Below, in pieces: positions 2,496 to 14,523 of a DNA stretch of 32,000 nucleotides; within the stretch, counting starts at the first letter, position 1, and every line of letters begins with the position of its first letter. Location: contig CP104013.1 in assembly GCA_025839675.1 (NCBI GenBank), positions 2,910,001 through 2,942,000 of the forward strand. The letters are read 5' to 3'. A program made the translations under genes and the position numbers. Source of the DNA: Candidatus Lokiarchaeum ossiferum. Lineage in GTDB: Archaea; Asgardarchaeota; Lokiarchaeia; Sigyniarchaeales; Promethearchaeaceae. Below the pieces are notes generated by a model. That model saw only the letters and a program-made list of their open reading frames with translations. It was not told the origin of the DNA and ran no database searches.

Positions 2496-3031
2496 CACAC
2501 CACATGAATAATGTCAATCAAAAAAAAGCACGTTTTACCATGGTGGAACAAATTAAGATCGAAGTCGGGATAATTGATATATAATATTTACTGATCTTCA
2601 TATCAATCTCAGTGAATTTAGGACAAAGAACTTTACTTTTTCTTCTTATCATTGACAGCTTTCTTGTTAATTTTTGCTTTATCCTTTTTATCTTTACGAT
2701 TATTTTCCATTTTCTTTTTTCGAGGCGTATTTTTTGGCATTGAATTTAGCAACTCCAATTTTATTATTACATCCAAGTTCTTTAAACCTTTAGTATCTCA
2801 ATTATCTTCATTTTATGGGATTTTTGCAATATTTAGCGAACCAAAATTTCTTGAAAGTGTAAATAGTTCAATTTTACTGGAATGTTCTCAATCAGAAATT
2901 GATTTTATTTTTTTTCAAAAAAAGCATTAAATTATAGTCGTGATGAGATTATTTTTAGATTAATACCTCCATTTATTATTGCCTTAAGTTTAAATAGTTC
3001 AGTTAGAACATAGAATTAGGAGAAATGATGT

Positions 3032-4396
3032 ATGACGGACAAAGAACCAATAGAGCGGACAAAAATCAATCAGAAACAGCCAGATTCCATACAGCCTCCC
3101 CTTAATTCAGCAGACATACATCAAAAAAAAGATCATCTAAAAAATGAAGAGGAAAGTCAGAAAATCAAAAACAAGTCTTTTTCATCTGAAAACAGTTCAA
3201 TTATCACCCTAAACCAATCTAAAAGCCCGTTCTTATTCCAAAATTTGAAAAATTTTGAATCAACTATGGCAAATCAACTAAATCAATATTATCCTCACTA
3301 CAACCCCCTTTTTGAGATATTAAATCATATTAAATTTCTAAATAATGGTGAAGATCGAGAGATAGCATTGAAAAAAAAACTAAATTTTTCAAATATTTTT
3401 ATCCGATGTTTTGAAGGTCACGAACTACTTCCATTTCTATATACATTTAGTCAGATTGAAAACTTACCCTTCTATTATCTTGGTTTATCTGAAAAGACTG
3501 GAATGGATTTTTTCTCAAATTATGAAAAAAATGCAGAAGAAGTCATTAAATTTTTCCGAAATCTCATAAACCAATCATTTTTATTCGTTATTCCCTTGGA
3601 AGCTTTTGCTTTTGAATGGAATCACACAAATGAATCGAAAAATCGATCATCCAGCATTATTAATGAAAAACGAATTTTTTCCACGTGCCTCACACTTATT
3701 AATAACATTAGAACCCTTTGTCCATTATCTACGATTGTAATCATTGATATCAGCAAGAATATTATTCCCATTGAATTTTTTTCAAATTTCGGTTCCAGTC
3801 TAAATATTATTTTACCAGATGCAGAAAGCCGCAGAAGATTTTTAGAATCCCTATTTTCCGATTCTCCAGAAGGGGCAATTGAAGGGGAACATTTGAGCCT
3901 GCAAATGAGAAATTGGAATTATGCTCATATTCGAAATCATATTCGTTATGCAAATCACTTGTTTCAAGCCCAACAATTTACCCAAAAAAAAAATAAGCAG
4001 CAATTCGATGATAATTATATTCTCGAAATGTTAGAAAACAATAGATTCTACAATCCACAAGCATTTTTAAGCGAAAAGACAACACTTAATGATGAATCTG
4101 GTCGATCTAATGCACATGATAAATATAGAACAACTGAAAACGCTCAAATTCTTCAAACCATTAGTAATCAAACTCACTCTAATCTAGAATCCCAACTATA
4201 CCAAGATGCAGCCTCGACTAATTTTGAAGAATTATGCATTACAATCGATAAACTTGCCAAGGGATTAGTCTTACAACCTCAGGAACGCAAATTGTTAGCA
4301 AATCATGCTTTCATTATGCGGGATGACCCGAATAAGGCCCTTCAAAAATTAAATAAAGCCAAAAACGCAATTGATAAAATATTACATTTAGTATAA
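3032..4396 (+). CDS. Degenerate (probably catalytically inactive) classic-clade AAA+-like protein; first gene of the SMC-like operon
   Basis: 454-aa ORF with AGGAG 9 nt upstream of the ATG. The central part follows AAA+ order but lacks the catalytic residues. The Walker-A position reads NIFIRCFEGHELLPF (no GxxGxGK[ST], about nt 3391-3435). The Walker-B position reads FLFVIPLEAF (no hhhhDE, about nt 3577-3609). The sensor-1/Arg-finger region reads TIVIIDISKNIIPIEFFSNFGSSLNIILPDAESRRRFLESLF (compare ATNRPD..LDPALLRPGRFDR.I.I.LPD...R..IL). Confidence 0.5.
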   Translation: MTDKEPIERTKINQKQPDSIQPPLNSADIHQKKDHLKNEEESQKIKNKSFSSENSSIITLNQSKSPFLFQNLKNFESTMANQLNQYYPHYNPLFEILNHIKFLNNGEDREIALKKKLNFSNIFIRCFEGHELLPFLYTFSQIENLPFYYLGLSEKTGMDFFSNYEKNAEEVIKFFRNLINQSFLFVIPLEAFAFEWNHTNESKNRSSSIINEKRIFSTCLTLINNIRTLCPLSTIVIIDISKNIIPIEFFSNFGSSLNIILPDAESRRRFLESLFSDSPEGAIEGEHLSLQMRNWNYAHIRNHIRYANHLFQAQQFTQKKNKQQFDDNYILEMLENNRFYNPQAFLSEKTTLNDESGRSNAHDKYRTTENAQILQTISNQTHSNLESQLYQDAASTNFEELCITIDKLAKGLVLQPQERKLLANHAFIMRDDPNKALQKLNKAKNAIDKILHLV

Positions 4397-4425
4397 ACCA
4401 AATCTTTCCTTAGAGGTATCAAAAA

Positions 4426-7400
4426 ATGACCGAATCGAACGATATTCTTGCCTATCCAACTTCACAATCGGAAATACAGACGATTGAAAAAAATGAGGAG
4501 AAACAAGATATTTTAGGTCCGTCCTTCGATCAGGATTTAACCAAGGTAAAAAATGTAAAAATACACAAAATTATTCTGGAGAATTTTCTCTCGTTTGAGC
4601 ACGATGAGGTGATTTTTGATCCTGAATTCTCCATTATCACCGGTCCAAATGGTGCGGGAAAGAGCACCATTTATCAAGCCCTTAAATTTGTTTTAGGCTC
4701 CAATGATTATGACGGTCGTTATGGAAAATGGGCCGATTTTATCAGGTCTGGAGCAAATTCAGCCTTAGTTCAAGTACATTTTGAGATAGACTCTCAACAT
4801 TATATCATTCAACGTAGCGTAGAACGAAACAAAGCACCAACATTTGCAATTCAATATCCAAAAACCAAAAAAATTCAACGAACTAACGTTAAAACGATTC
4901 GAAATTTTTCACAGACCATCAGAATTGATCCCGATAACATTTTTTCTTTTATGTCACAAGGTAATATTGATTCAATCAAGGATTTCAAAGAGGAAACTTT
5001 ATGCAATTTTGTAGAGGTAGGGATAGGGGTTGATATTTTACGCCATCAAATTTTGGATCAAAAACAGAAGATTGAAGCATTAGTGCGAGAAAACACAGTA
5101 TTGCAAGCGCGAAAAGAGAATTTAACGTATCAATTAGTTGAATTGGAGCCAAAATTAAAGAAACTTGAGAAAAAGAAAGAATTCCTTCAAAAACTGGATC
5201 TTTTAGAGGATGAATTATTATGGAATCAGCGAAAAGAAATTTTACAAGCCATTCAAGAGAAGGAACAAGAAATTCTCCTCCAACAAACGCGGTGTACTAA
5301 TATTGCTTTGGAAATCCAGAAACTAGAAGTAGAAGTAAGTGAGAAACAAACAAAAATTAATTCCGAAAACTCATTATTGGAACAGATTCAAACAGATTTA
5401 GCCACAAAGTCTGCCCGATTACAAATTATTACAGATGAAATAACAAAAAAAACCACAGAAAAAAATAATATTGCAGAAAAAATTGAAGATTTAAGTAAGG
5501 AAATTGAACTTTATACATCCGATGCAAAAACTTGCGCAATTAAAATGGATGCGTCAAACAAACAGCTTGAGCAAATTGAAATTAAGATAAGCAATCATGA
5601 AAAAGAATTAAACACGTTTCAAGAAGAAGAACGTGAATTGAATAAAGAATTTCATACCCATCAAAAAATATTACTCGAGTACCAAGCCAAGACCTCCCAG
5701 AAACAAAATGAAATCCAACGGTTAGAAGAAATTACTAAAAGACATCAGGAATTAGAAGAAGAAATTGCCAGAAAAATTAAGGATATTAAAAAGATTAGAA
5801 ACGACTTAGAAGCGTTTAGTTGGTTTATGAAAAATCCAAGATCCGATCTCCAATCTCGAATGATTGTGGTTTCTCAAAAATATGAATCTCAAATTACTCA
5901 AATCACTAACGACATTCAAGATTTAGATAAGATTTACAAAGAGATAATTGAGAAAATCGAAAAAACAAAACATTCGGTGTACGATAAAGAAATGCCCAAA
6001 CCCAAAGCAATTCAATCCATGATGCAAGAAATTCGGGAGAGAAAATTACATTGTTTTGGACCCCTCATTGATTATATTTCCTTTGATGGATTATTTCAGA
6101 AAGCAATTGCATCAATATTTGGATCTCGTGTGTTAAATAGCTTCATAGCCAAGGATAATGAAACTTTTGCGCAATTGAAAAATATGGCTCAACGCTTTCG
6201 AGCTCAATGTAATATCTATTTGGAACGATCCAATCCCCTCCGGAAGCTTGCAGAACCACAAAATGCTGGGAAGAATGGTATTTTTGGATACATGGTAAAC
6301 CAAATCGATTATTTAAATCCAGATATTGCGATTAAAAAAGTGATATATAGTGTCGCTAATCGAACGCTAATAGTTAAAGACCACATTACCGCTATAAATT
6401 TCGTTCAAAATTATAATTATGACTCATGGATCGTCACCTTGGATGGAGAACAAATACGACCAAAGAAATTGGTGATTGAATCAAGACCTCATTTGACAAA
6501 TAAAAACCAAATAAATTTTGCTAATGTGGCTCAAGCTAAACAATATTTAATCGAACTCAATGAAAAAGCAGAAATGAATCGGAAGGAAGTTAATCAACGC
6601 AAGCAGTTACAATTAGAAAAACAGAATAAAAGGAAAATTCTCCAAACGAGATTAACCCAAATTGAAATGCTACTAACAAAATATAAGCTTCTCGAAATGG
6701 GTACTCTTCGGAAAAATAAACTCATCTCTGAACGCGAAAAAGCATATCATAAGATGGAACTGGTGAAGGAAACTTGTGTAAATTTAGACTTGGAATTAGA
6801 GAAAATCAAATCGAATCTGCCCAAAGAAACCTTATCGGGACAAGAACGACTTGAAATACTCCCCCATTTAATCCAAAATTACCAAAACGAGCTGCAACAA
6901 TATCAAAATACAAAAACAAACTATAAGGAGGAACTCCAAAATCTTAAAATTGAGAAATCTACAATTGATACCAGTATATCCTTAAAAAATCAAGAAAAAG
7001 AAACTATTGAGACCAATTTAAAGAAGTTTGATGGTGAATTTTTTAACCTGTTTAAAGAAAACATGGGTTTAAAGACAGAAATAGATACCTTAAAGAAAGA
7101 AAAAACAAACCTTTCTCATCAACTCAAAGAATATATCCAATCCATTTCCATTTTGAATAAAGAAATAAGTACAAAAAATTTTGACAAGCTAAAAATTGAC
7201 TTAAATATCGAAAAAATAACGGAATTTATCTCAATCAATCAGCAAAAGTTGGACCAAATAGAACTAACATTTAAAGATAAAAAAACCCATTTTGTCCAAG
7301 ATCGTTCCTTTCAAGAAATTGCCACCGATATTGCATTAATCAAGAAATTTATTAGTAATTATCGTGATATTGATGATTCTATTCTTGTATCAAAAGAAAA

Positions 7401-7977
7401 AATAGAAAATTCAATAACTCGGATCAATGAAAAGCGAGAAATGATTCACGAAGAAATTGATGCTGCCCAAGAAGCTGAAAAAGAATTAGAAGAAGCGTAT
7501 TATGTAAAATTTGAGAAATCTATTATCATTTTAGAAGAAGCTATGAATAAGAAATTTTCTGTAGCTGAACTTAATTTCCGTGTACAGTTGAAGCTGAAAG
7601 GAGAAATAAAAAACTTAGGACTCAATATCAATATTTTCTTTAAAATAGATGGAGAAGAAATGTCGTATCCATTAGCAGCTTTAAGCGGTGGGCAAAGATC
7701 CATGGTAGGAATATGTCTTATGCTTTCCTTGAATCAGCTTAATCCTTCACCTCTTAATATTTATGATGAATGTGATATGTTTCTAGATGAAAAAAATGCT
7801 CAAACTGTTGCAAAACTTGTTTATCAACTCGCTCAATCTGGAGTTCAATTTGTCATCTTAATGCCTAGTAAAAATAAAACCCTATTACAACTAGCTAATA
7901 AAGTCATAGGTGTTAGTCGAAATGGTAAAAATGGACCTTCAACAGTCCATTACAGCCGACCAATGAAAAGGAGCTAG
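4426..7977 (+). CDS. SMC-family ATPase with hinge; head motifs are Smc5/6-like rather than canonical Smc
   Basis: 1183 aa with GAGGT upstream of the ATG. Walker A is GPNGAGKST (nt 4642-4668). Two long K/E/Q/L-rich coiled-coil arms flank a central hinge-like block, FGPLIDYISFDGLFQKAIASIFGSRVLNSFI...WIVTLDGEQIRP (about nt 6050-6465). The signature motif is LSGGQRS (nt 7681-7701), Walker B is LNIYDECDMFLD (nt 7753-7788), followed by QFVILMPSK. Confidence 0.85.
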   Translation: MTESNDILAYPTSQSEIQTIEKNEEKQDILGPSFDQDLTKVKNVKIHKIILENFLSFEHDEVIFDPEFSIITGPNGAGKSTIYQALKFVLGSNDYDGRYGKWADFIRSGANSALVQVHFEIDSQHYIIQRSVERNKAPTFAIQYPKTKKIQRTNVKTIRNFSQTIRIDPDNIFSFMSQGNIDSIKDFKEETLCNFVEVGIGVDILRHQILDQKQKIEALVRENTVLQARKENLTYQLVELEPKLKKLEKKKEFLQKLDLLEDELLWNQRKEILQAIQEKEQEILLQQTRCTNIALEIQKLEVEVSEKQTKINSENSLLEQIQTDLATKSARLQIITDEITKKTTEKNNIAEKIEDLSKEIELYTSDAKTCAIKMDASNKQLEQIEIKISNHEKELNTFQEEERELNKEFHTHQKILLEYQAKTSQKQNEIQRLEEITKRHQELEEEIARKIKDIKKIRNDLEAFSWFMKNPRSDLQSRMIVVSQKYESQITQITNDIQDLDKIYKEIIEKIEKTKHSVYDKEMPKPKAIQSMMQEIRERKLHCFGPLIDYISFDGLFQKAIASIFGSRVLNSFIAKDNETFAQLKNMAQRFRAQCNIYLERSNPLRKLAEPQNAGKNGIFGYMVNQIDYLNPDIAIKKVIYSVANRTLIVKDHITAINFVQNYNYDSWIVTLDGEQIRPKKLVIESRPHLTNKNQINFANVAQAKQYLIELNEKAEMNRKEVNQRKQLQLEKQNKRKILQTRLTQIEMLLTKYKLLEMGTLRKNKLISEREKAYHKMELVKETCVNLDLELEKIKSNLPKETLSGQERLEILPHLIQNYQNELQQYQNTKTNYKEELQNLKIEKSTIDTSISLKNQEKETIETNLKKFDGEFFNLFKENMGLKTEIDTLKKEKTNLSHQLKEYIQSISILNKEISTKNFDKLKIDLNIEKITEFISINQQKLDQIELTFKDKKTHFVQDRSFQEIATDIALIKKFISNYRDIDDSILVSKEKIENSITRINEKREMIHEEIDAAQEAEKELEEAYYVKFEKSIIILEEAMNKKFSVAELNFRVQLKLKGEIKNLGLNINIFFKIDGEEMSYPLAALSGGQRSMVGICLMLSLNQLNPSPLNIYDECDMFLDEKNAQTVAKLVYQLAQSGVQFVILMPSKNKTLLQLANKVIGVSRNGKNGPSTVHYSRPMKRS

Positions 7978-7980
7978 AAA

Positions 7981-8643
7981 ATGCCGGATCTGTCGAATTT
8001 ATTGGCGAAAACGACAAGACTCAAAGATCGCATGGAAATGGACCATATTTCCCTCATTGAAGAAGATCTGAAATCGATTTTCATAGAATTGAAAGAATTA
8101 ATATCTCCGAGTGATTTAGATCTTGGGATTTCTGTCATGCAAAATGGTACATTGATGCTAGAACAAAAGATTGAAGAAGTGAAACGTTTCATCAATTATT
8201 TAACACAAAAGGATCAAATTTTTCAATTTATCACTTCAACTGCGACGGATCACCAACTAGCAACTATTTTATCACAAGTATGGCATGAACCCATTCAATT
8301 ACCCTATTTATCAATGAATTATCTCGTTGGAAATTGGGCAAAATTAGTAAGAGATAAAAAAATTCACCACACGAAATCAATTCAAGAGATTTCTCCGATT
8401 GAAAAGAAAACAGTGGGGAGTTTCACAGATTTTAGTGATCCCTTTGAAGAACAAATGTTAAGTTATTTAGATCGAATAAAGCCGATCTTACCTGCCACCA
8501 TGGATGATATTTTAGGACATTTTGATAATCCAGATAAATATTTCGAACAATTTTCATATATCCTTCATCTATTGCAAGAAGGATATCTTTACTTTAAAAA
8601 ATCGACCCAACAATTTATAAAAGGTGAAATTCAAACTGAATGA
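7981..8643 (+). CDS. Kleisin-like SMC partner (putative)
   Basis: 220-aa ORF starting 3 nt after the SMC stop, with AGGAG 8 nt upstream. The C-terminus (DDILGHFDNPDKYFEQFSYILHLLQEGYLYFKKSTQQFIKGEI) matches the ScpA/kleisin C-terminal winged-helix pattern (..vv.FLALLEL.k.g.i.l.Q...F..I). The N-terminal half is not recognisably ScpA-like by eye. Confidence 0.45.
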   Translation: MPDLSNLLAKTTRLKDRMEMDHISLIEEDLKSIFIELKELISPSDLDLGISVMQNGTLMLEQKIEEVKRFINYLTQKDQIFQFITSTATDHQLATILSQVWHEPIQLPYLSMNYLVGNWAKLVRDKKIHHTKSIQEISPIEKKTVGSFTDFSDPFEEQMLSYLDRIKPILPATMDDILGHFDNPDKYFEQFSYILHLLQEGYLYFKKSTQQFIKGEIQTE

Positions 8644-9187
8644 GTACGCTATTCTATTCCACTTACTATCCAGACAACAAAGTGACAATTCTTTACCCGG
8701 TAAAATACTAATTGGTTCCCATTCAGAAGAATTAAAGGATAAATTAGGAATGAAAGGCAAAATTGGCCAAGATCAATATCAAAGATTATTAGAGCAGTTT
8801 GCAGAAAATATAAAACCTTTTGGATTAAAAATTCGCCAAAATCCGTTCAATCATTATTGGTATCTAACCCAAAACCATGATATTCAAAACTTATTCGCAG
8901 GAAATCCATTTTCTAATAAAACACGGTTAGCCGCTACCTTTACGGTGATTCTTTCATTGTGCCTAATCAATTCAGGATCCACAGATCTGGGCACAATCCA
9001 AAAAGTACGGAAAAAAATGGATATTCAGGGTGATGTGGAAGAATTATGTCAACTATATTTACTTAAACAGTCTGGAAATCAAGTTAAAATTCATGAAAAC
9101 GTAGGATATTATCTTGATCTAGACCAATTTTCTCAATTCATGGAAACAGAAGCCTATCGAGCAGGAAATTTAAAGAAAGATCCCTAA
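8624..9187 (+). CDS. Tandem winged-helix ScpB/kite-like protein (putative)
   Basis: 187-aa ORF. GTG at 8624 is the only start available after the in-frame stop at 8618-8620, and it overlaps the upstream gene by 20 nt. There are two WH-like halves. The first is FAENIKPFGLKIRQNPFNHYWYLT. The second is KTRLAATFTVILSLCLINSGSTDLGTIQKVRKK..LCQLYLLKQSGNQVKIHENVGYYL (compare ScpB kLS.AALETLAIIAY.QPiTR.EIE.IRGV...L....lI...G....Y.tT). Confidence 0.5.
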   Translation: MKFKLNEYAILFHLLSRQQSDNSLPGKILIGSHSEELKDKLGMKGKIGQDQYQRLLEQFAENIKPFGLKIRQNPFNHYWYLTQNHDIQNLFAGNPFSNKTRLAATFTVILSLCLINSGSTDLGTIQKVRKKMDIQGDVEELCQLYLLKQSGNQVKIHENVGYYLDLDQFSQFMETEAYRAGNLKKDP

Positions 9188-9288: not shown

Positions 9289-9606
9289 TTGGGAATATTT
9301 ACAAAGAAAAAACAATCTGGACTCTCATCACGCTATAATAAAGAAGTACATATCAAACAAATTACGATTAATTCTCACCGTGACTTTACCGTTCTTCGTC
9401 ACAATCTTCTGGATGGAAACATCATGATATGTAATTTAAAACCCCTAGTGCAAATAGCAAAAAAAGATCGTACGAATCAGGATTTGCATAATTCATTACA
9501 AAAAATTAAACATTATTGCATTCAAAATGGGGCTATGGTCTCAAAATTAGAAGAGAGTTTACTACTTATTACACCTAATTCTGATTTCTTGATCAATTCA
9601 GTATAA
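9289..9606 (+). CDS. sepF: Cell-division protein SepF homologue
   Basis: 105 aa with a TTG start and GAGGA 5 nt upstream. The N-terminus MGIFTKKK could be a membrane-targeting helix. The core HIKQITINSHRDFTVLRHNLLDGNIMICNLKPL...NGAMVSKLEESLLLITPNSDFLI parallels the SepF core of B. subtilis ([32 protein letters not shown]...[21 protein letters not shown]). Confidence 0.6.
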   Translation: MGIFTKKKQSGLSSRYNKEVHIKQITINSHRDFTVLRHNLLDGNIMICNLKPLVQIAKKDRTNQDLHNSLQKIKHYCIQNGAMVSKLEESLLLITPNSDFLINSV

Positions 9607-11520: not shown

Positions 11521-14500
11521 CTAAGATAAATTTCTTCCCAATGTCTCTTTAAATTTTGCAAATTGATCGGATGATAGGGGGAAAGACTTCTTATTAGAGA
11601 ACAAAGTAAAATAATAATCTTGATCTTGAGGACATAATTTACTTCCCCCCCGTATTGTTGGTTCCCATGATAATATAGTAGTTATTAATTTTTGTGGGGC
11701 TTGATAGATAACACCAAGTAAAATATCACAAATATCCAGAATAATTTTAATTTCGGAAGAATTAAACCGATTATGGCTTGAATCAAAATTTAGAAACAAA
11801 TTTTTCATCAAACAACTTGCAAGCTCATCAATTATTTGATTATACAAATCTAACTTCTCAATTAGATTATCAGGGAGGGGAAATGCTCTCCATATATCAG
11901 TATTCATATGGCGTCCATCGCTATAGATTCGATACCATGTATAAAAAAAGGAACTGTTGAATACAAGGAGAAGCCAATTTCTTAAATAAAGATTTGATAC
12001 AAGAATATTGCTTGCTGCAATTTGGGTTCCATAATAAGGAATTTGATCCCAAGCATTGTACCAGTAATTTCCAGATATTCGATACCATATAACTTCTCCT
12101 TTATTAATTTTAACTGGATCCAATTTTTGTTTCAAATCAACAGGTGCCCGTAATAGTATAGGAGCAGAAAGAATATCACCAAGTACCACATAACGACTGG
12201 TGTGAACAGAATTTTTGGATGAACTATACGACTGGAATAAAAAAAGCATAGATTGAATTACAGGATCCCCACATTTCGGTAGACGGTGCTTCTGATTGAA
12301 AGATGTAGAAATTATTTTCCCTAACAAGAAATCATTGGCTTTTAGATAGGAAAGATGATCTAAGGAAGGTTTCTTTCTATACATTGAGGTGGTATAGACA
12401 GGATAAAAGTGATTAGAACTATCTTTAGTATTCTTACAAGGATCAACTTTGAAAAGACCTTGAAGTAACGAAATCGATTGGGTCATCCCTTCAAAAAAAC
12501 GACATTTATCCCGGTCAAAAGACGCAATCAATGAGACTTTATATGTTGAAGCAAGTTTTGCGCGAGTTTGTGAGAGATCTTTGCTAAAACAGAGGACATA
12601 TGAAGTGATAAAATTCAGAACTCCTTTTTCTCGATTCAAATTTAAGGCTCGTTCGATAAATACAGAAGAAATTTCTTTTGGGAAAGAAGCATATTGAGAA
12701 ACGAAATGTTTTTCTTTGGGAGAAAGCAAATTTCCATAGGGAGGATTACCTAAAATGACATGAAATCCAGGAGAAACACTATAGTTATTGGAAAATGTAT
12801 GGGATAAATTATTCGTCTTTCTGTTAGTTGAACTAGGTTGAGGAGGGCGAAGAAATATTTCCGGAAATTCTATCAACCAATGAAATAATTCTTGATTGTT
12901 TTCATCGGATTTGTTTTTTGAAGGAATATGATACAACAAATTGCATAAATTCTTTGTGTTATGGTATATTTCCTTATAGTATTTTTCAAGTAAAGAATAA
13001 TGTTGTGTTCCCACTTCATTAAGTAAAATTAAGCGTGAATTTAAATTGAGATTTAGAATTTCCCTCATTTCGTCAATTAAATGTGAAATTTTTTCAACCT
13101 TGATTATTGAATAAGATTCTTCATTGCGATGATGAAGGTTAGGATATAACCGAAGAAATTCTTTAGCATATTTTTGGGATTTTAAGTTAATTTTATAAAG
13201 TTCTATTGCATTGCGAATAATTTGTTTTAGAATCTTGGTAAAATCATCCATAATTAAAGAATTAAATGTGAATGAATCTTTCTCTTCAATTTTATTTTGA
13301 AGTTCTTCTATACTTAAAATTCCTGTTAACGAATTTCCCCTTCTAATATTAAGCTTTACTGGAACGAGACCTTCGATTTTAACAAATTTGTACATTTTTG
13401 AAGAGATTAAAGTCATAAAACACCTTAACTTTGCAATAATTACAGCTTCAGGGTTGATATCCACCCCGTAGATCTGTTTTGGAAGCAAAATGTTTAGGGA
13501 TATAATAAATTGGAACTGTTTCAATGAGGGAAAATCGGTGAAATATGGCTGAAATAAGGATTGTGATAATAAAAACGACTTTACTTTTTCAGATGATTGA
13601 ATCTTGGCAAGATTCCACCAAAATTCATAAATCTCTTGAAGCTTTTTAATAGCACCTATCAAAAAATGACCTGAACCCATGGCGGGATCTAGTATCCGAA
13701 GAGAGGTCAGAACATAATAGAGAGAAATAAGCCAATTTTCTTGTTCTTTGAAACTTAATGAATCGTATTCAATTTGAAGAAGCTGCAAAATTGAATGAGA
13801 CATATTAAAAGGAAAAGGATCTTGAACAATAGAGTTCTTAAAAATTTGATAAAATGATAATTGATGAAAAATAGCTTTTTTTGCTAAAAACTGAGTTATA
13901 TTTTGGGGAGTGTAAAAAGCACCGGTAGAAGCACGAGTTTTTTCAGACATAAGATGCTCATACAGAGCACCTATTGTATATTCAGTGATTTTCCCAATAT
14001 TCGCTTCATATAATTGAAAACAATTTACTAAGGGAAGTGTATCAGGAAGACTGGAAGCCAAACCACGCAAAGATCCAAATTTGATATTCTTGCTATTGAA
14101 ATTTTCACAAAAATAGCCATTGTCTCCAAAAGCATATTGAATAAAGCCTCCCCAATCATTATTGCGAATGTTCATTTGTAAAGGTTGAAAGGGGAAGAAT
14201 TCTTGCCAATCGGCTTCAATTTTATGCGAAACAAAAATAGAATTAAAAATGTGAGTTAAAATCGTGCAATATTGCATGTTAGGGGGGCTATGATTTGAAA
14301 GATATGCTTCCATTTTAGGATCACAAGAAGAAGAGAGCTTAACCATCCATTGTGGGTGTGAAAAAAAACTTTCTTGATCCAAACGCCAAACCCACATCAT
14401 TAATAAAATAAACTGATCGATATTTTTTGAAGTAACTGAATAAAGAGCAAGCGATTGCAAATATTTTTTGGTCTTCTGAAAGAGAACTAAAAAAAAGCGG

Positions 14501-14523
14501 ATAGAAGTAATTTTATTCTTCAA
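11521..14523 (-). CDS. Large gamma-class N6-adenine DNA methyltransferase, Eco57I/PglX-like, no recognisable nuclease domain
   Basis: 1000 aa. Motifs: FYTPQNITQFLAKKAI; motif I LDPAMGSGHFLIGA (about nt 13665-13694); IYGVDINPEAVIIAKLR; motif IV VILGNPPYG (about nt 12737-12754). A C-terminal region of about 400 aa is typical of the target-recognition part of this family. The annotated start is a TTG inside the last codons of the upstream gene, so the start is uncertain. Confidence 0.8.
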   Translation of the reverse strand: MKNKITSIRFFLVLFQKTKKYLQSLALYSVTSKNIDQFILLMMWVWRLDQESFFSHPQWMVKLSSSCDPKMEAYLSNHSPPNMQYCTILTHIFNSIFVSHKIEADWQEFFPFQPLQMNIRNNDWGGFIQYAFGDNGYFCENFNSKNIKFGSLRGLASSLPDTLPLVNCFQLYEANIGKITEYTIGALYEHLMSEKTRASTGAFYTPQNITQFLAKKAIFHQLSFYQIFKNSIVQDPFPFNMSHSILQLLQIEYDSLSFKEQENWLISLYYVLTSLRILDPAMGSGHFLIGAIKKLQEIYEFWWNLAKIQSSEKVKSFLLSQSLFQPYFTDFPSLKQFQFIISLNILLPKQIYGVDINPEAVIIAKLRCFMTLISSKMYKFVKIEGLVPVKLNIRRGNSLTGILSIEELQNKIEEKDSFTFNSLIMDDFTKILKQIIRNAIELYKINLKSQKYAKEFLRLYPNLHHRNEESYSIIKVEKISHLIDEMREILNLNLNSRLILLNEVGTQHYSLLEKYYKEIYHNTKNLCNLLYHIPSKNKSDENNQELFHWLIEFPEIFLRPPQPSSTNRKTNNLSHTFSNNYSVSPGFHVILGNPPYGNLLSPKEKHFVSQYASFPKEISSVFIERALNLNREKGVLNFITSYVLCFSKDLSQTRAKLASTYKVSLIASFDRDKCRFFEGMTQSISLLQGLFKVDPCKNTKDSSNHFYPVYTTSMYRKKPSLDHLSYLKANDFLLGKIISTSFNQKHRLPKCGDPVIQSMLFLFQSYSSSKNSVHTSRYVVLGDILSAPILLRAPVDLKQKLDPVKINKGEVIWYRISGNYWYNAWDQIPYYGTQIAASNILVSNLYLRNWLLLVFNSSFFYTWYRIYSDGRHMNTDIWRAFPLPDNLIEKLDLYNQIIDELASCLMKNLFLNFDSSHNRFNSSEIKIILDICDILLGVIYQAPQKLITTILSWEPTIRGGSKLCPQDQDYYFTLFSNKKSFPLSSDQFAKFKETLGRNLS

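What the first reader, a model, noticed from the sequence alone, without database searches (positions are those of the whole stretch)
3032..9187. Four-gene operon for a non-canonical, Smc5/6-like SMC complex (dead AAA+, SMC, kleisin-like, ScpB/kite-like)
Four co-directional genes are separated by 29 nt, 3 nt and a 20-nt overlap, and the first three have SD-like motifs, so one transcript is likely. The 1183-aa protein has every SMC part: Walker A, two long coiled-coil arms, a central hinge-like block, a signature motif and Walker B. Its head motifs differ from the canonical bacterial/archaeal Smc pattern (LSGGEK.., DE[VI]DAALD, QFIVITH). They read LSGGQRSMVGICLMLSL, YDECDMFLD, QFVILMPSK and N-terminal ..FIRSGANSALVQVHF. 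That is the pattern I associate with eukaryotic Smc6/Smc5 (LSGGERS.., DEFDV[FY]MD, QF.LLTP, ..F[IV]K.G...A.I.). It is encoded together with a protein carrying a kleisin-type C-terminal winged helix and a tandem winged-helix, ScpB-like kite. This is a complete ring-plus-kleisin-plus-kite set distinct from standard smc-scpA, preceded by an AAA+ pseudo-enzyme with no counterpart in known SMC complexes. In a likely Asgard host it bears on the origin of the eukaryotic Smc5/6 complex. Archaeal Smc5/6-like genes have been noted in phylogenomic surveys. I cannot tell whether this operon architecture has been described.
Basis: partly seen in the sequence, partly recalled or inferred. Interest (0 to 1): 0.8.

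Follow-up and report, generated by a model that had tools for sequence, protein, structure and literature searches.

The report
Asgard SMC operon with dead AAA+
This Lokiarchaeum locus is a conserved four-gene operon for a non-canonical, Asgard-only DNA-organising ring (SMC, kleisin, kite) plus a catalytically dead AAA+ protein; the three-part ring type is already published, the fourth partner apparently is not.

Summary
Four co-directional genes sit at 3032-9187 with 29 nt, 3 nt and -20 nt spacing. The window is Ca. Lokiarchaeum ossiferum (ORF1 is 100% identical to NEF87_002455).

- **SMC:** the 1183-aa protein is complete and looks catalytically competent. It scores 182 bits on TIGR02169 (cutoff 729); canonical SMCs score 570-1430.
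- **Kleisin:** the AlphaFold model (pLDDT 87) has an N-terminal helical domain, a linker and a C-terminal winged helix. Its best full-length PDB matches are Nse4, at weak E-values.
- **Kite:** the model (pLDDT 83) is a tandem winged helix, and its top 13 PDB matches are all kites, ScpB first.
- **ORF1:** a classic-clade AAA+ homologue lacking the Walker A lysine, Walker B acids and arginine fingers in all 12 homologues examined.
- **Synteny:** the four-gene order held in 14 of 14 Asgard loci, down to about 25% SMC identity.

"Smc5/6-like" is only partly supported. The D-loop motif cited also occurs in canonical archaeal SMCs, head profiles score higher on canonical Smc than on Smc5/6, and the kite is ScpB-like. 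Non-canonical SMC-kleisin-kite operons in Asgard archaea, including a third Asgard-only set, are already published (van Hooff et al., bioRxiv 2024/25). The conserved dead AAA+ partner is not mentioned there. Verdict: a new variant of a known kind.

The parts
2989..2996 (+). TTTAAATA, a candidate archaeal TATA box 36 nt upstream of the ORF1 start. No comparable box lies between the four genes.
   Evidence: Read directly from the sequence. This is inference only, because such motifs are common in a 32% GC genome.
3032..4396 (+). ORF1, 454 aa (= L. ossiferum NEF87_002455): catalytically dead classic-clade AAA+ homologue, with a low-complexity N-terminus (aa 1-75).
   Evidence: 100% identity to P0120. 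An 8-sequence profile hits p97/VCP, Rix7, Msp1 and Rpt4 at 1.8e-6 and weaker. 4 of 8 homologues hit Pfam AAA PF00004, best 2.2e-4. It is present upstream of the SMC in 14 of 14 loci.
3383..4021 (+). Degenerate AAA+ core of ORF1 (aa ~118-330). The P-loop position reads CFEGHELL, the Walker B position FVIPLE, and the LPDAESRRRFL and W295 lid motifs are retained.
   Evidence: In the alignment of 12 homologues, none has GK[ST], none has an acidic DE pair at Walker B, and the arginine-finger positions are hydrophobic. The alignment to p97 is shown.
4178..4393 (+). C-terminal ~70-aa helical module of ORF1. It is the best-conserved part of the protein and the candidate docking surface.
   Evidence: Mean pairwise column identity is 0.34-0.44 here against 0.10-0.30 elsewhere in the protein. 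It has no relative in PDB or Pfam.
4426..7977 (+). Non-canonical SMC, 1183 aa: N-head, long coiled-coil arm, hinge, second arm, C-head.
   Evidence: Pfam SMC_N 3e-22 and AAA_23. TIGR02169 aligns over aa 46-1174 but scores 182 bits against a 729 cutoff, whereas canonical SMCs score 570-1430 on TIGR02169 or TIGR02168.
4558..5070 (+). SMC N-terminal head half, including Walker A GPNGAGKST (4642-4668) and the Q-loop FMSQGN (4948-4965).
6055..6396 (+). SMC hinge (aa 544-657).
   Evidence: Pfam SMC_hinge E=2e-4, 22.1 bits against a 22.5 cutoff. PF06470 is precomputed for many family members.
7438..7959 (+). SMC C-terminal head half: signature LSGGQRSM (7681-7704), Walker B/D-loop LNIYDECDMFLD (7753-7788) and the H-loop region QFVILMPSK (7846-7872).
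7981..8643 (+). Kleisin, 220 aa: N-terminal helical domain with a 45-residue helix (aa 43-87), flexible linker (aa 125-153) and C-terminal winged helix (aa 154-216; nt 8440-8628).
   Evidence: AlphaFold2 with a 48-sequence MSA gave pLDDT 87.4. In Foldseek against PDB, ranks 1-2 are Nse4 (7qcd_F, E 0.036; 7tve_G). ScpA C-terminal winged helices 5h66_C and 4i99_C (TMt 0.60-0.63), MukF, Scc1 and RAD21 are also in the top 50. The gene always lies between the SMC and the kite.
8624..9187 (+). Kite, 187 aa: tandem winged helix (WH1 aa 5-83, WH2 aa 100-156).
   Evidence: AlphaFold2 with a 47-sequence MSA gave pLDDT 83. The Foldseek PDB top 13 are all kites: ScpB 3w6j_C (E 2e-3, TM 0.52/0.57), then Nse1/Nse3, MAGE-G1 and JetB; MukE follows at rank 17. 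8 of 47 family members hit Pfam SMC_ScpB and none hit Nse1 or MAGE.

Best explanation
The locus is a single operon of Ca. Lokiarchaeum ossiferum. It encodes an Asgard-restricted, non-canonical SMC holocomplex.

**The ring.** A homodimeric SMC with intact ATP-binding and hydrolysis motifs is closed by a short kleisin. The kleisin's N-terminal helical domain should bind one SMC neck and its C-terminal winged helix the other head's cap. A dimer of ScpB-like kites should sit on the kleisin linker. Like other SMC-kleisin-kite rings, the complex most likely entraps or translocates on DNA using ATP. It probably works alongside the cell's canonical Smc-ScpAB.

**The fourth product.** ORF1 is a classic-clade AAA+ fold that has lost nucleotide binding and hydrolysis across the whole family. 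It most likely acts as a non-catalytic accessory subunit (loader, targeting factor or ATPase regulator). It would dock through its conserved C-terminal helical module, with the dead AAA+ domain serving as an interaction platform.

**Shown versus inferred.** Shown here: gene order and its conservation, the folds, the motif status and the distribution. Inferred: complex formation, homodimerisation, DNA entrapment and ORF1's role.
For: - **Operon:** gaps of 29, 3 and -20 nt. In seven of the eight other loci with called genes the gaps run from -4 to 82 nt, with frequent 4-nt overlaps; the eighth (L021) has a 188-nt gap before the SMC.
- **Conservation:** the four-gene order held in 14 of 14 loci while the flanking genes differ between divergence tiers.
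- **SMC:** complete, with Walker A, Q-loop, LSGGQ and Walker B DE conserved.
- **Non-canonical:** 182 bits against 570-1430 for canonical SMCs.
- **Folds:** kleisin and kite.
- **ORF1:** AAA+ homology, loss of catalytic residues in 12 of 12 homologues, and a conserved C-terminal module.
- **Distribution:** every source-named hit (about half of them) is an Asgard lineage, and only 61 kleisin representatives exist among 1.84 billion proteins.
- **Contrast:** three canonical SMC loci carry Pfam-recognisable ScpA and/or ScpB (both in one of the three) and have no ORF1 homologue.
- **Literature:** archaeal paralogous SMC-kleisin-kite operons are interpreted as separate homodimeric complexes (10.1101/2024.01.07.573240).
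Against:
- The kleisin's structural matches are weak (best E 0.036). It has no sequence-level link to any kleisin family.
- ORF1's association rests on synteny alone.
- I could not confirm that L. ossiferum also carries a canonical smc-scpAB.
- The most divergent tier has VSEGQ instead of LSGGQ, so ATPase competence may not be uniform across the family.
Confidence: 0.62

Rival explanations
1. One reading: the module is specifically the archaeal counterpart, or a sister lineage, of eukaryotic Smc5/6-Nse4-Nse1/3. In van Hooff et al.'s terms it would be the Asgard-only duplicate of the SMC5/6-related complex.
For: - The kleisin's two best and only full-length PDB matches are Nse4.
- The single-sequence N-head plus arm matches yeast Smc6 best among full-length chains.
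- The H-loop region has Pro, as in Smc5/6 (the Smc5/6 pattern is from my own knowledge).
- Distribution fits. The family occurs in Loki, Hod and Sigyn lineages, no hit or 45 comes from a contig of P. syntrophicum's genome size (about 4.4 Mb, from my own knowledge), and that species scores 0 in the paper's 'Nse3_related' column.
- In Heimdall LC_3 that published set is a contiguous SMC-kleisin-kite trio with a single kite gene.
Against: - The head-only profile scores 117-129 bits on Pyrococcus Smc and 103-118 on Smc1-4, but 95-98 on Smc5 and 73-77 on Smc6.
- The kite is nearest ScpB by fold and by Pfam, with 0 of 47 hits to Nse1 or MAGE models.
- DE.DMFLD is not discriminating.
- No LC_3 protein was identified among the hits.
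- No phylogeny including eukaryotes could be built.
Confidence: 0.4
2. It is simply the organism's housekeeping Smc-ScpAB, highly diverged in Asgard archaea, with an unrelated gene upstream.
For: The gene order smc-kleisin-kite and the ScpB-like kite match Smc-ScpAB. The heads score best on canonical archaeal Smc. I did not verify that a second SMC exists in this genome.
Against: - It scores 182 bits against a 729 cutoff on the equivalog model, while even distant canonical SMCs score at least 570.
- The kleisin has no ScpA signature in 48 members.
- Published tables show Lokiarchaeia carrying canonical sets in addition to non-canonical ones.
- The upstream gene is conserved in 14 of 14 loci.
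Confidence: 0.1
3. It is a Wadjet- or Lamassu-like anti-plasmid or anti-virus SMC defence system, with ORF1 as the effector or sensor partner.
For: - Four-gene SMC modules with an extra non-ring gene are typical of defence systems (JetABCD).
- Eco57I-type restriction/methylase genes lie within a few kb in the window, L001, L007 and L021.
- PADLOC gives mad3 (3e-25) and LmuB (2e-22) hits.
Against: - The PADLOC hits cover only generic ABC-ATPase head regions, and JetC scores just 8.5e-6.
- No nuclease or other effector domain is present, and ORF1 is catalytically dead.
- Flanks are stably housekeeping across Sigyn, Hod and Loki tier-3 loci: a thiolase/ChsH2 cluster upstream and a prenyltransferase downstream.
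- Composition is native, at 0.30-0.33 GC throughout.
Confidence: 0.1
4. ORF1 is a co-transcribed passenger with a function unrelated to the SMC ring.
For: No interaction data exist. ORF1 is poorly conserved overall (17-26% identity between tiers).
Against: It is adjacent in 14 of 14 loci across SMC divergence down to about 25% identity, while the outer flanks change. Start/stop overlaps with the SMC gene occur in L004 and L006. The C-terminal module is strongly conserved. ORF1 is absent from the canonical SMC loci.
Confidence: 0.15

Closest known systems
Archaeal non-canonical ('SMC5/6-related') SMC-kleisin-kite operons, including the proposed third, Asgard-only complex (van Hooff et al., bioRxiv 10.1101/2024.01.07.573240; Yoshinaga & Inagaki 2021, PMC8665677)
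   Same: A second or third SMC paralogue in Asgard archaea, encoded contiguously with its own kleisin and kite and interpreted as a separate homodimeric ring. The distribution (Lokiarchaeia and Hodarchaeales, not P. syntrophicum) matches their 'Nse3-related' set.
   Different: Those papers describe three genes; the term 'AAA+' does not occur in the main text and 'AAA' gave no word-start match there. Here the kite is ScpB-like by Pfam and by fold. I could not verify that this family is the one they placed in the SMC5/6-related clade.
Prokaryotic Smc-ScpAB
   Same: Gene order smc-kleisin-kite, kleisin size (~220 aa), tandem winged-helix kite closest to ScpB, full-length SMC with hinge, and heads that score best on archaeal Smc.
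   Different: The SMC scores 182 bits against a 729 cutoff on the equivalog model. The kleisin is undetectable with the ScpA model. The signature motif is LSGGQ rather than LSGGE. The H-loop region contains proline. There is a conserved fourth gene.
Eukaryotic Smc5/6-Nse4-Nse1/Nse3 with the Nse5/6 loader
   Same: A kite-containing SMC complex with an additional regulatory module. The kleisin model's best full-length matches are Nse4. ORF1 could play an Nse5/6-like loader or ATPase-regulator role; this is a functional analogy only.
   Different: The ring here is presumably homodimeric. There is one kite gene with no RING domain, and no Nse2. ORF1 has an AAA+ fold, not an alpha-solenoid. Head profile scores to Smc5/6 are lower than to canonical Smc.
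Wadjet JetABCD / MukBEF
   Same: SMC, kleisin and kite, plus in Wadjet a fourth operon gene. JetB and MukE appear among the kite's structural matches.
   Different: The gene order differs and there is no Toprim nuclease. JetC similarity is negligible (8.5e-6). The kleisin is monomer-sized rather than MukF-like.
Dead AAA+-like regulators such as LAP1/LULL1 of Torsin (from my own knowledge)
   Same: An AAA+ fold that has lost nucleotide binding and is retained as a regulatory partner of an ATPase.
   Different: LAP1/LULL1 complete an AAA+ active site with an arginine finger. ORF1 has lost its arginine fingers, and its putative partner is an ABC-type SMC head.

Membership tests
SMC protein (superfamily architecture) | Split ABC-type head (Walker A at the N-terminus; signature motif, Walker B and D-loop at the C-terminus) | tested here: met
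   GPNGAGKST, LSGGQ and YDECDMFLD are present and conserved across 49 family members. Pfam SMC_N scores 3e-22.
SMC protein (superfamily architecture) | Central hinge flanked by two long coiled-coil arms | tested here: met
   TIGR02169 aligns co-linearly over aa 46-1174. Pfam SMC_hinge matches aa 544-657 at 22.1 bits, against a 22.5 cutoff. The hinge is precomputed for many homologues.
Canonical prokaryotic Smc (TIGR02169/TIGR02168 equivalog) | Score above the curated equivalog cutoff | tested here: not met
   182 bits against 729 and 174 against 567. Eight canonical SMCs from the same search score 570-1430.
Kleisin | N-terminal helical domain, flexible linker and C-terminal winged helix that binds the SMC head cap | tested here: met
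   The AlphaFold2 model (pLDDT 87.4) shows this architecture. Nse4, ScpA C-terminal winged helix, MukF, Scc1 and RAD21 are among the PDB matches. This is a fold-level test only, and the E-values are weak.
Kleisin | Sequence membership in ScpA, Rad21/Rec8 or Nse4 families | tested here: not met
   No Pfam hit in 48 members and no PDB sequence hit with a 48-sequence profile. hhalign against an archaeal ScpA gave probability 0.8%.
Kleisin | Physical bridging of the two SMC heads | not testable with these tools
   Needs multimer prediction or biochemistry.
Kite (ScpB / Nse1-Nse3 / MukE / JetB) | Tandem winged-helix fold | tested here: met
   The AlphaFold2 model (pLDDT 83) has two winged-helix domains. 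The Foldseek PDB top 13 are all kites.
ScpB-type kite | Sequence similarity to PF04079 | tested here: inconclusive
   8 of 47 members hit it, best 2.2e-5 in that scan and 1.2e-6 in the 8-member scan. The window's own protein does not.
Nse1/Nse3 (MAGE)-type kite | Sequence similarity to the Nse1 or MAGE models, or best structural match to Nse1/Nse3 | tested here: not met
   0 of 47 hit the Nse1 or MAGE Pfam models. Nse3/Nse1 (7dg2) rank below ScpB in Foldseek. Membership of van Hooff's 'Nse3-related' clade was not tested.
Smc5/6-related SMC clade | Phylogenetic grouping with eukaryotic Smc5 and Smc6 | not testable with these tools
   No eukaryotic or reference archaeal SMC5/6-related sequences could be retrieved. 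A proxy, head-profile scores against PDB, favours canonical Smc over Smc5/6.
Classic-clade AAA+ ATPase | Homology of the alpha/beta core and lid | tested here: met
   The profile hits p97/VCP at 1.8e-6, then Rix7, Msp1, Cdc48, Yme1 and Rpt4. 4 of 8 members hit PF00004.
Classic-clade AAA+ ATPase | Catalytic residues: Walker A GK[ST], Walker B hhhhDE, arginine finger(s) | tested here: not met
   All three are absent in 12 of 12 homologues, so this is a pseudo-ATPase.
Wadjet / Lamassu defence SMC systems | JetC- or LmuB-level similarity plus an effector nuclease gene | tested here: not met
   PADLOC gives only head-level generic hits (JetC 8.5e-6), and the other three proteins have no hits. There is no nuclease domain in the module.

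The most novel reading that the evidence does not exclude
The dead AAA+ protein is an integral fourth subunit of an Asgard-specific SMC holocomplex. That would make it a new class of SMC accessory factor, an AAA+-derived loader or ATPase regulator docking through its conserved C-terminal module. It would imply that the archaeal relatives of eukaryotes had already begun adding dedicated regulatory subunits to duplicated SMC rings, as Nse5/6 or Scc2/4 do in eukaryotes.
Probability: 0.4. Interest if true: 0.75.

Novelty: new variant of a known kind. Interest (0 to 1): 0.6.

Why it matters
Eukaryotes differ from most prokaryotes in having several specialised SMC complexes, each with dedicated regulators. 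Asgard archaea are the closest known relatives of eukaryotes, and L. ossiferum is one of only two cultured when the van Hooff preprint was written.

A conserved, Asgard-only SMC ring that always travels with a non-catalytic AAA+ partner gives a concrete, testable case of SMC-complex elaboration before eukaryogenesis. It also identifies three sequence families (ORF1, kleisin, kite) that current family models do not annotate.

The ring itself is not new, because paralogous archaeal SMC-kleisin-kite operons are published. The added value lies in the fourth subunit and in a caution about classification: motif-level resemblance to Smc5/6 is not sufficient to assign this family.

Tried and rejected
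- **Genome scan, full kite alignment:** A 5-sequence alignment worked, but one narrow pattern returned only 7 loci and used the single genome-contig scan. I therefore could not scan L. ossiferum for other SMC sets or fetch P. syntrophicum or LC_3 loci.
- **Concatenated ORF1+kleisin query:** meant to recover both families in the last large-database search. It returned only 3 ORF1 hits because the candidate cap filled with low-complexity words.
- **Structure prediction with locus-derived rows:** This was solved for the kleisin through the exhaustive representative search. ORF1 could not be modelled.
- **Kleisin and kite profiles against PDB sequences:** nothing found.
- **Kleisin against reference kleisins:** hhalign against one archaeal ScpA was not significant. 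A local HMM search against eight reference proteins ranked the two kleisins first, but at only 7-10 bits.
- **ORF1 C-terminal module:** no relative in PDB or Pfam.
- **L019's 522-aa gene upstream of a canonical SMC:** unrelated to ORF1.
- **Literature:** nothing on HVO_A0114 (PF25212), on an AAA+ partner in Asgard SMC operons, or on L. ossiferum SMC.
- **Cluster-member look-up:** did not reveal organism names or an LC_3 member.
- **Head-motif argument for Smc6 affinity:** rejected as non-discriminating.


Full report
**1. What is in the sequence**

| ORF | Coordinates | Length |
|---|---|---|
| ORF1 | 3032-4396 | 454 aa |
| SMC | 4426-7977 | 1183 aa |
| Kleisin candidate | 7981-8643 | 220 aa |
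| Kite candidate | 8624-9187 | 187 aa (GTG start) |

- The gaps are 29 nt, 3 nt and a 20-nt overlap.
- AGGAG, GAGGT and GGAG precede the first three starts. Nothing similar precedes the fourth.
- A TTTAAATA box lies at 2989-2996, 36 nt upstream of ORF1. There is no comparable box between the genes, and an oligo-T run follows the last gene. These are consistent with one transcript but are only suggestive in a 32% GC genome.
- ORF1 is 100% identical to NEF87_002455 of Ca. Lokiarchaeum ossiferum. The SMC is 99% identical, and the kite 98% identical, to proteins of that species.

**2. The SMC**

- Pfam finds SMC_N (3e-22), AAA_23 and a borderline hinge at aa 544-657.
- The archaeal Smc equivalog model TIGR02169 aligns end to end (aa 46-1174 against model positions 2-1160). 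It scores only 182 bits against a 729-bit cutoff.
- Eight more distant SMCs picked up by the same database search score 570-1430 bits on TIGR02169 or TIGR02168. The window's protein is therefore a complete SMC but clearly not a canonical Smc.
- Walker A, the Q-loop, LSGGQ, Walker B DE and the D-loop aspartate are conserved across 49 family members, so it should be an active ATPase.
- Two variants stand out. A middle tier has GPNWSGKT at Walker A, and the most divergent tier has VSEGQ in place of LSGGQ.

**3. Conservation of the module**

Homologues fall into tiers of about 41-48%, 30% and 25% identity. All hits that carry a source name (about half) are from Asgard lineages (Loki-, Sigyn-, Hod-, Thor- and Odinarchaeota by source names).

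- I fetched loci around seven SMC homologues from all tiers and seven loci through the kite.
- I annotated every locus with HMMs built from the four proteins.
- Every independent locus with enough flanking DNA has the same order: ORF1 (405-475 aa), SMC, kleisin (212-268 aa), kite (169-187 aa).
- A locus reached from the ORF1 side shows the same order, making 14 of 14.
- In seven of the eight other loci with called genes the intergenic distances run from -4 to 82 nt, with frequent 4-nt overlaps. These include ORF1/SMC overlaps in L004 and L006; the eighth (L021) has a 188-nt gap before the SMC.
- The outer flanks differ between tiers. Tier 1 has glucanotransferase upstream and a SepF-like ORF downstream. 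Tier 3 has a thiolase/ChsH2 cluster upstream and a prenyltransferase downstream. The conserved unit is therefore the four-gene block.
- Three canonical SMC loci show SMC followed by Pfam-recognisable ScpA and/or ScpB (both in one of the three), and have no ORF1 homologue.

**4. The kite**

- The window's 187-aa protein has no Pfam hit. However, 3 of 8, and later 8 of 47, family members hit SMC_ScpB (best 1.2e-6). None hits the Nse1 or MAGE models.
- An AlphaFold2 model from a 47-sequence alignment (pLDDT 83) has two winged-helix domains.
- In Foldseek against PDB the first 13 matches are all SMC kites. ScpB leads (3w6j_C; E 2e-3; TM 0.52/0.57), followed by Nse1/Nse3, MAGE-G1 and JetB, with MukE at rank 17.
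- It is a kite, and it is closest to ScpB.

**5. The kleisin**

- No sequence method links the 220-aa protein to any kleisin family.
- An exhaustive phmmer search of 1.84 billion representatives found only 61 relatives.
- With 48 of them as the alignment, AlphaFold2 gave pLDDT 87.4 and pTM 0.42. The low pTM is what two domains joined by a flexible linker would give.
- The model has an N-terminal helical domain with a 45-residue helix, an unstructured stretch at aa 125-153, and a C-terminal H-H-H-beta-beta winged helix.
- Foldseek ranks Nse4 of yeast Smc5/6 first and second (7qcd_F, E 0.036; 7tve_G). These are the only full-length alignments.
- ScpA C-terminal winged helices (TMt 0.60-0.63), MukF, Scc1 and RAD21 are also in the top 50.
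- The E-values are weak. Even so, the architecture, the hit list and the invariable position between SMC and kite make the kleisin assignment the best reading.

**6. ORF1**

- An 8-sequence profile hits classic-clade AAA+ proteins. These are p97/VCP D1 and D2 (1.8e-6), Rix7, Msp1/ATAD1, Cdc48, Yme1 and Rpt4, matched from Walker B through the lid.
- 4 of 8 homologues hit Pfam AAA.
- In 12 homologues the P-loop position reads APSGTD, APSGHG, CFEGHE or has no loop at all. None has GK[ST].
- The Walker B DE is replaced by NQ, EQ, DQ, HN, RN or hydrophobic residues, and the arginine-finger positions are hydrophobic.
- The structural LP...R..FL and GW.W.DI motifs persist.
- The N-terminus is variable and low-complexity.
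- The best-conserved part is a C-terminal module of about 70 aa (column identity 0.34-0.44). It has no relative in PDB or Pfam.

**7. Is it Smc5/6-like?**

The evidence is mixed.

For:
- The Nse4 matches of the kleisin.
- The single-sequence N-head plus arm matches Smc6 best among full-length chains.
- The proline in the H-loop region.
- The distribution. Van Hooff et al. describe canonical and SMC5/6-related SMC-kleisin-kite operons in TACK and Asgard archaea. They also describe a third, Asgard-only set whose kite groups with Nse3.
- Their 'Nse3_related' column is positive only in Hodarchaeales and some Lokiarchaeia, and is zero in P. syntrophicum. No hit in my searches comes from a contig of that species' genome size.
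- In Heimdall LC_3 the canonical set has two kite genes, whereas the Nse3-related set is a contiguous trio with one kite, as here.

Against:
- DE.DMFLD is also the canonical archaeal D-loop.
- A head-only profile scores 117-129 bits on Pyrococcus Smc, 103-118 on Smc1-4, 95-98 on Smc5 and 73-77 on Smc6, which is level with Rad50. Long eukaryotic branches could explain this result.
- The kite is ScpB-like.
- I could not show that any LC_3 protein belongs to the family.

No tree including eukaryotes could be built with these tools. I put the specific SMC5/6-related reading at about 0.4.

**8. Mechanism**

- The best-supported picture is an SMC homodimer closed by the kleisin, with a kite dimer on the kleisin linker. 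It would act on DNA by ATP-driven entrapment or translocation as other SMC-kleisin-kite rings do. This follows from established knowledge of Smc-ScpAB, MukBEF and Smc5/6.
- Homodimerisation follows the published argument from operon structure.
- ORF1 most likely acts as a non-catalytic fourth subunit, a loader, targeting factor or ATPase regulator, docking through its C-terminal module. That rests on strict synteny, tight coupling and the conservation pattern. It is an inference.
- A defence role is less likely. There is no effector, similarity in PADLOC is only generic, flanks are housekeeping and composition is native. Eco57I-type genes do recur nearby, though.

**9. Novelty**

- The ring type is known (van Hooff et al., bioRxiv 2024/25; Yoshinaga & Inagaki 2021).
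- The term 'AAA+' does not occur in the van Hooff main text. Full-text searches found no paper describing an AAA+-like partner of an archaeal SMC complex.
- The finding is therefore a new variant of a known kind, with moderate-to-high interest mainly because of ORF1 and the Asgard context.

Noticed in passing
window 9289-9606 (+): A 105-aa ORF about 100 nt downstream of the kite has a weak SepF (FtsZ-anchor) Pfam hit (E 0.0022). A 106-aa ORF sits in the same position in the tier-1 relatives L001 and L009. This is a possible link between the SMC module and cell division.
   Followed up: partly
window 11521-14523 (-); also L001 13521-15534, L007 13860-15420, L021 4153-6153: Eco57I/N6_Mtase-type (type IIG-like) restriction-modification genes lie within a few kb of the SMC module in the window and in three other loci, two of them from different divergence tiers. 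This could be chance or a defence-island association.
   Followed up: no
L001 1-447 and L009 1-400 (genes run off the locus ends; would lie left of the window start): A ~1200-aa HEAT-repeat protein with faint Cnd1/HEAT Pfam hits lies about 4-5.5 kb upstream of the module in two tier-1 relatives, separated from it by glycoside hydrolase genes. HEAT-repeat 'hawk' subunits are not known in prokaryotes, so this may deserve a look.
   Followed up: no
P0005 and P0018: Two members of this SMC family carry the same MAG locus-tag prefix (DRO88_06945 and DRO88_02065), so some Lokiarchaeia have two paralogues of the family. The P0005 subgroup has LSGGEQS, DEIEMFLD and LMPDSS variants.
   Followed up: no
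P0045-P0052 and P0022-P0044: The most divergent tier of the SMC family has VSEGQ or LSEGQ instead of LSGGQ in the signature motif. The middle tier has tryptophan inside Walker A (GPNWSGKT). Both are unusual for SMC ATPases.
   Followed up: no
L019 2420-3988: A canonical-scoring SMC (P0055) has an unannotated 522-aa gene 13 nt upstream and a 260-aa kleisin-position gene without a ScpA Pfam hit. The 522-aa protein is unrelated to ORF1.
   Followed up: partly
kite family A6: 30 of 47 kites weakly hit Pfam PF25212 (HVO_A0114, a Haloferax family; best E 0.001), more often than they hit ScpB. Nothing about this family was found in the literature library.
   Followed up: partly
window 2652-2930 (+): A 92-aa TTG-start ORF rich in Phe, Ser and Ile lies just upstream of the operon. 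It is probably a spurious ORF in AT-rich intergenic DNA.
   Followed up: no
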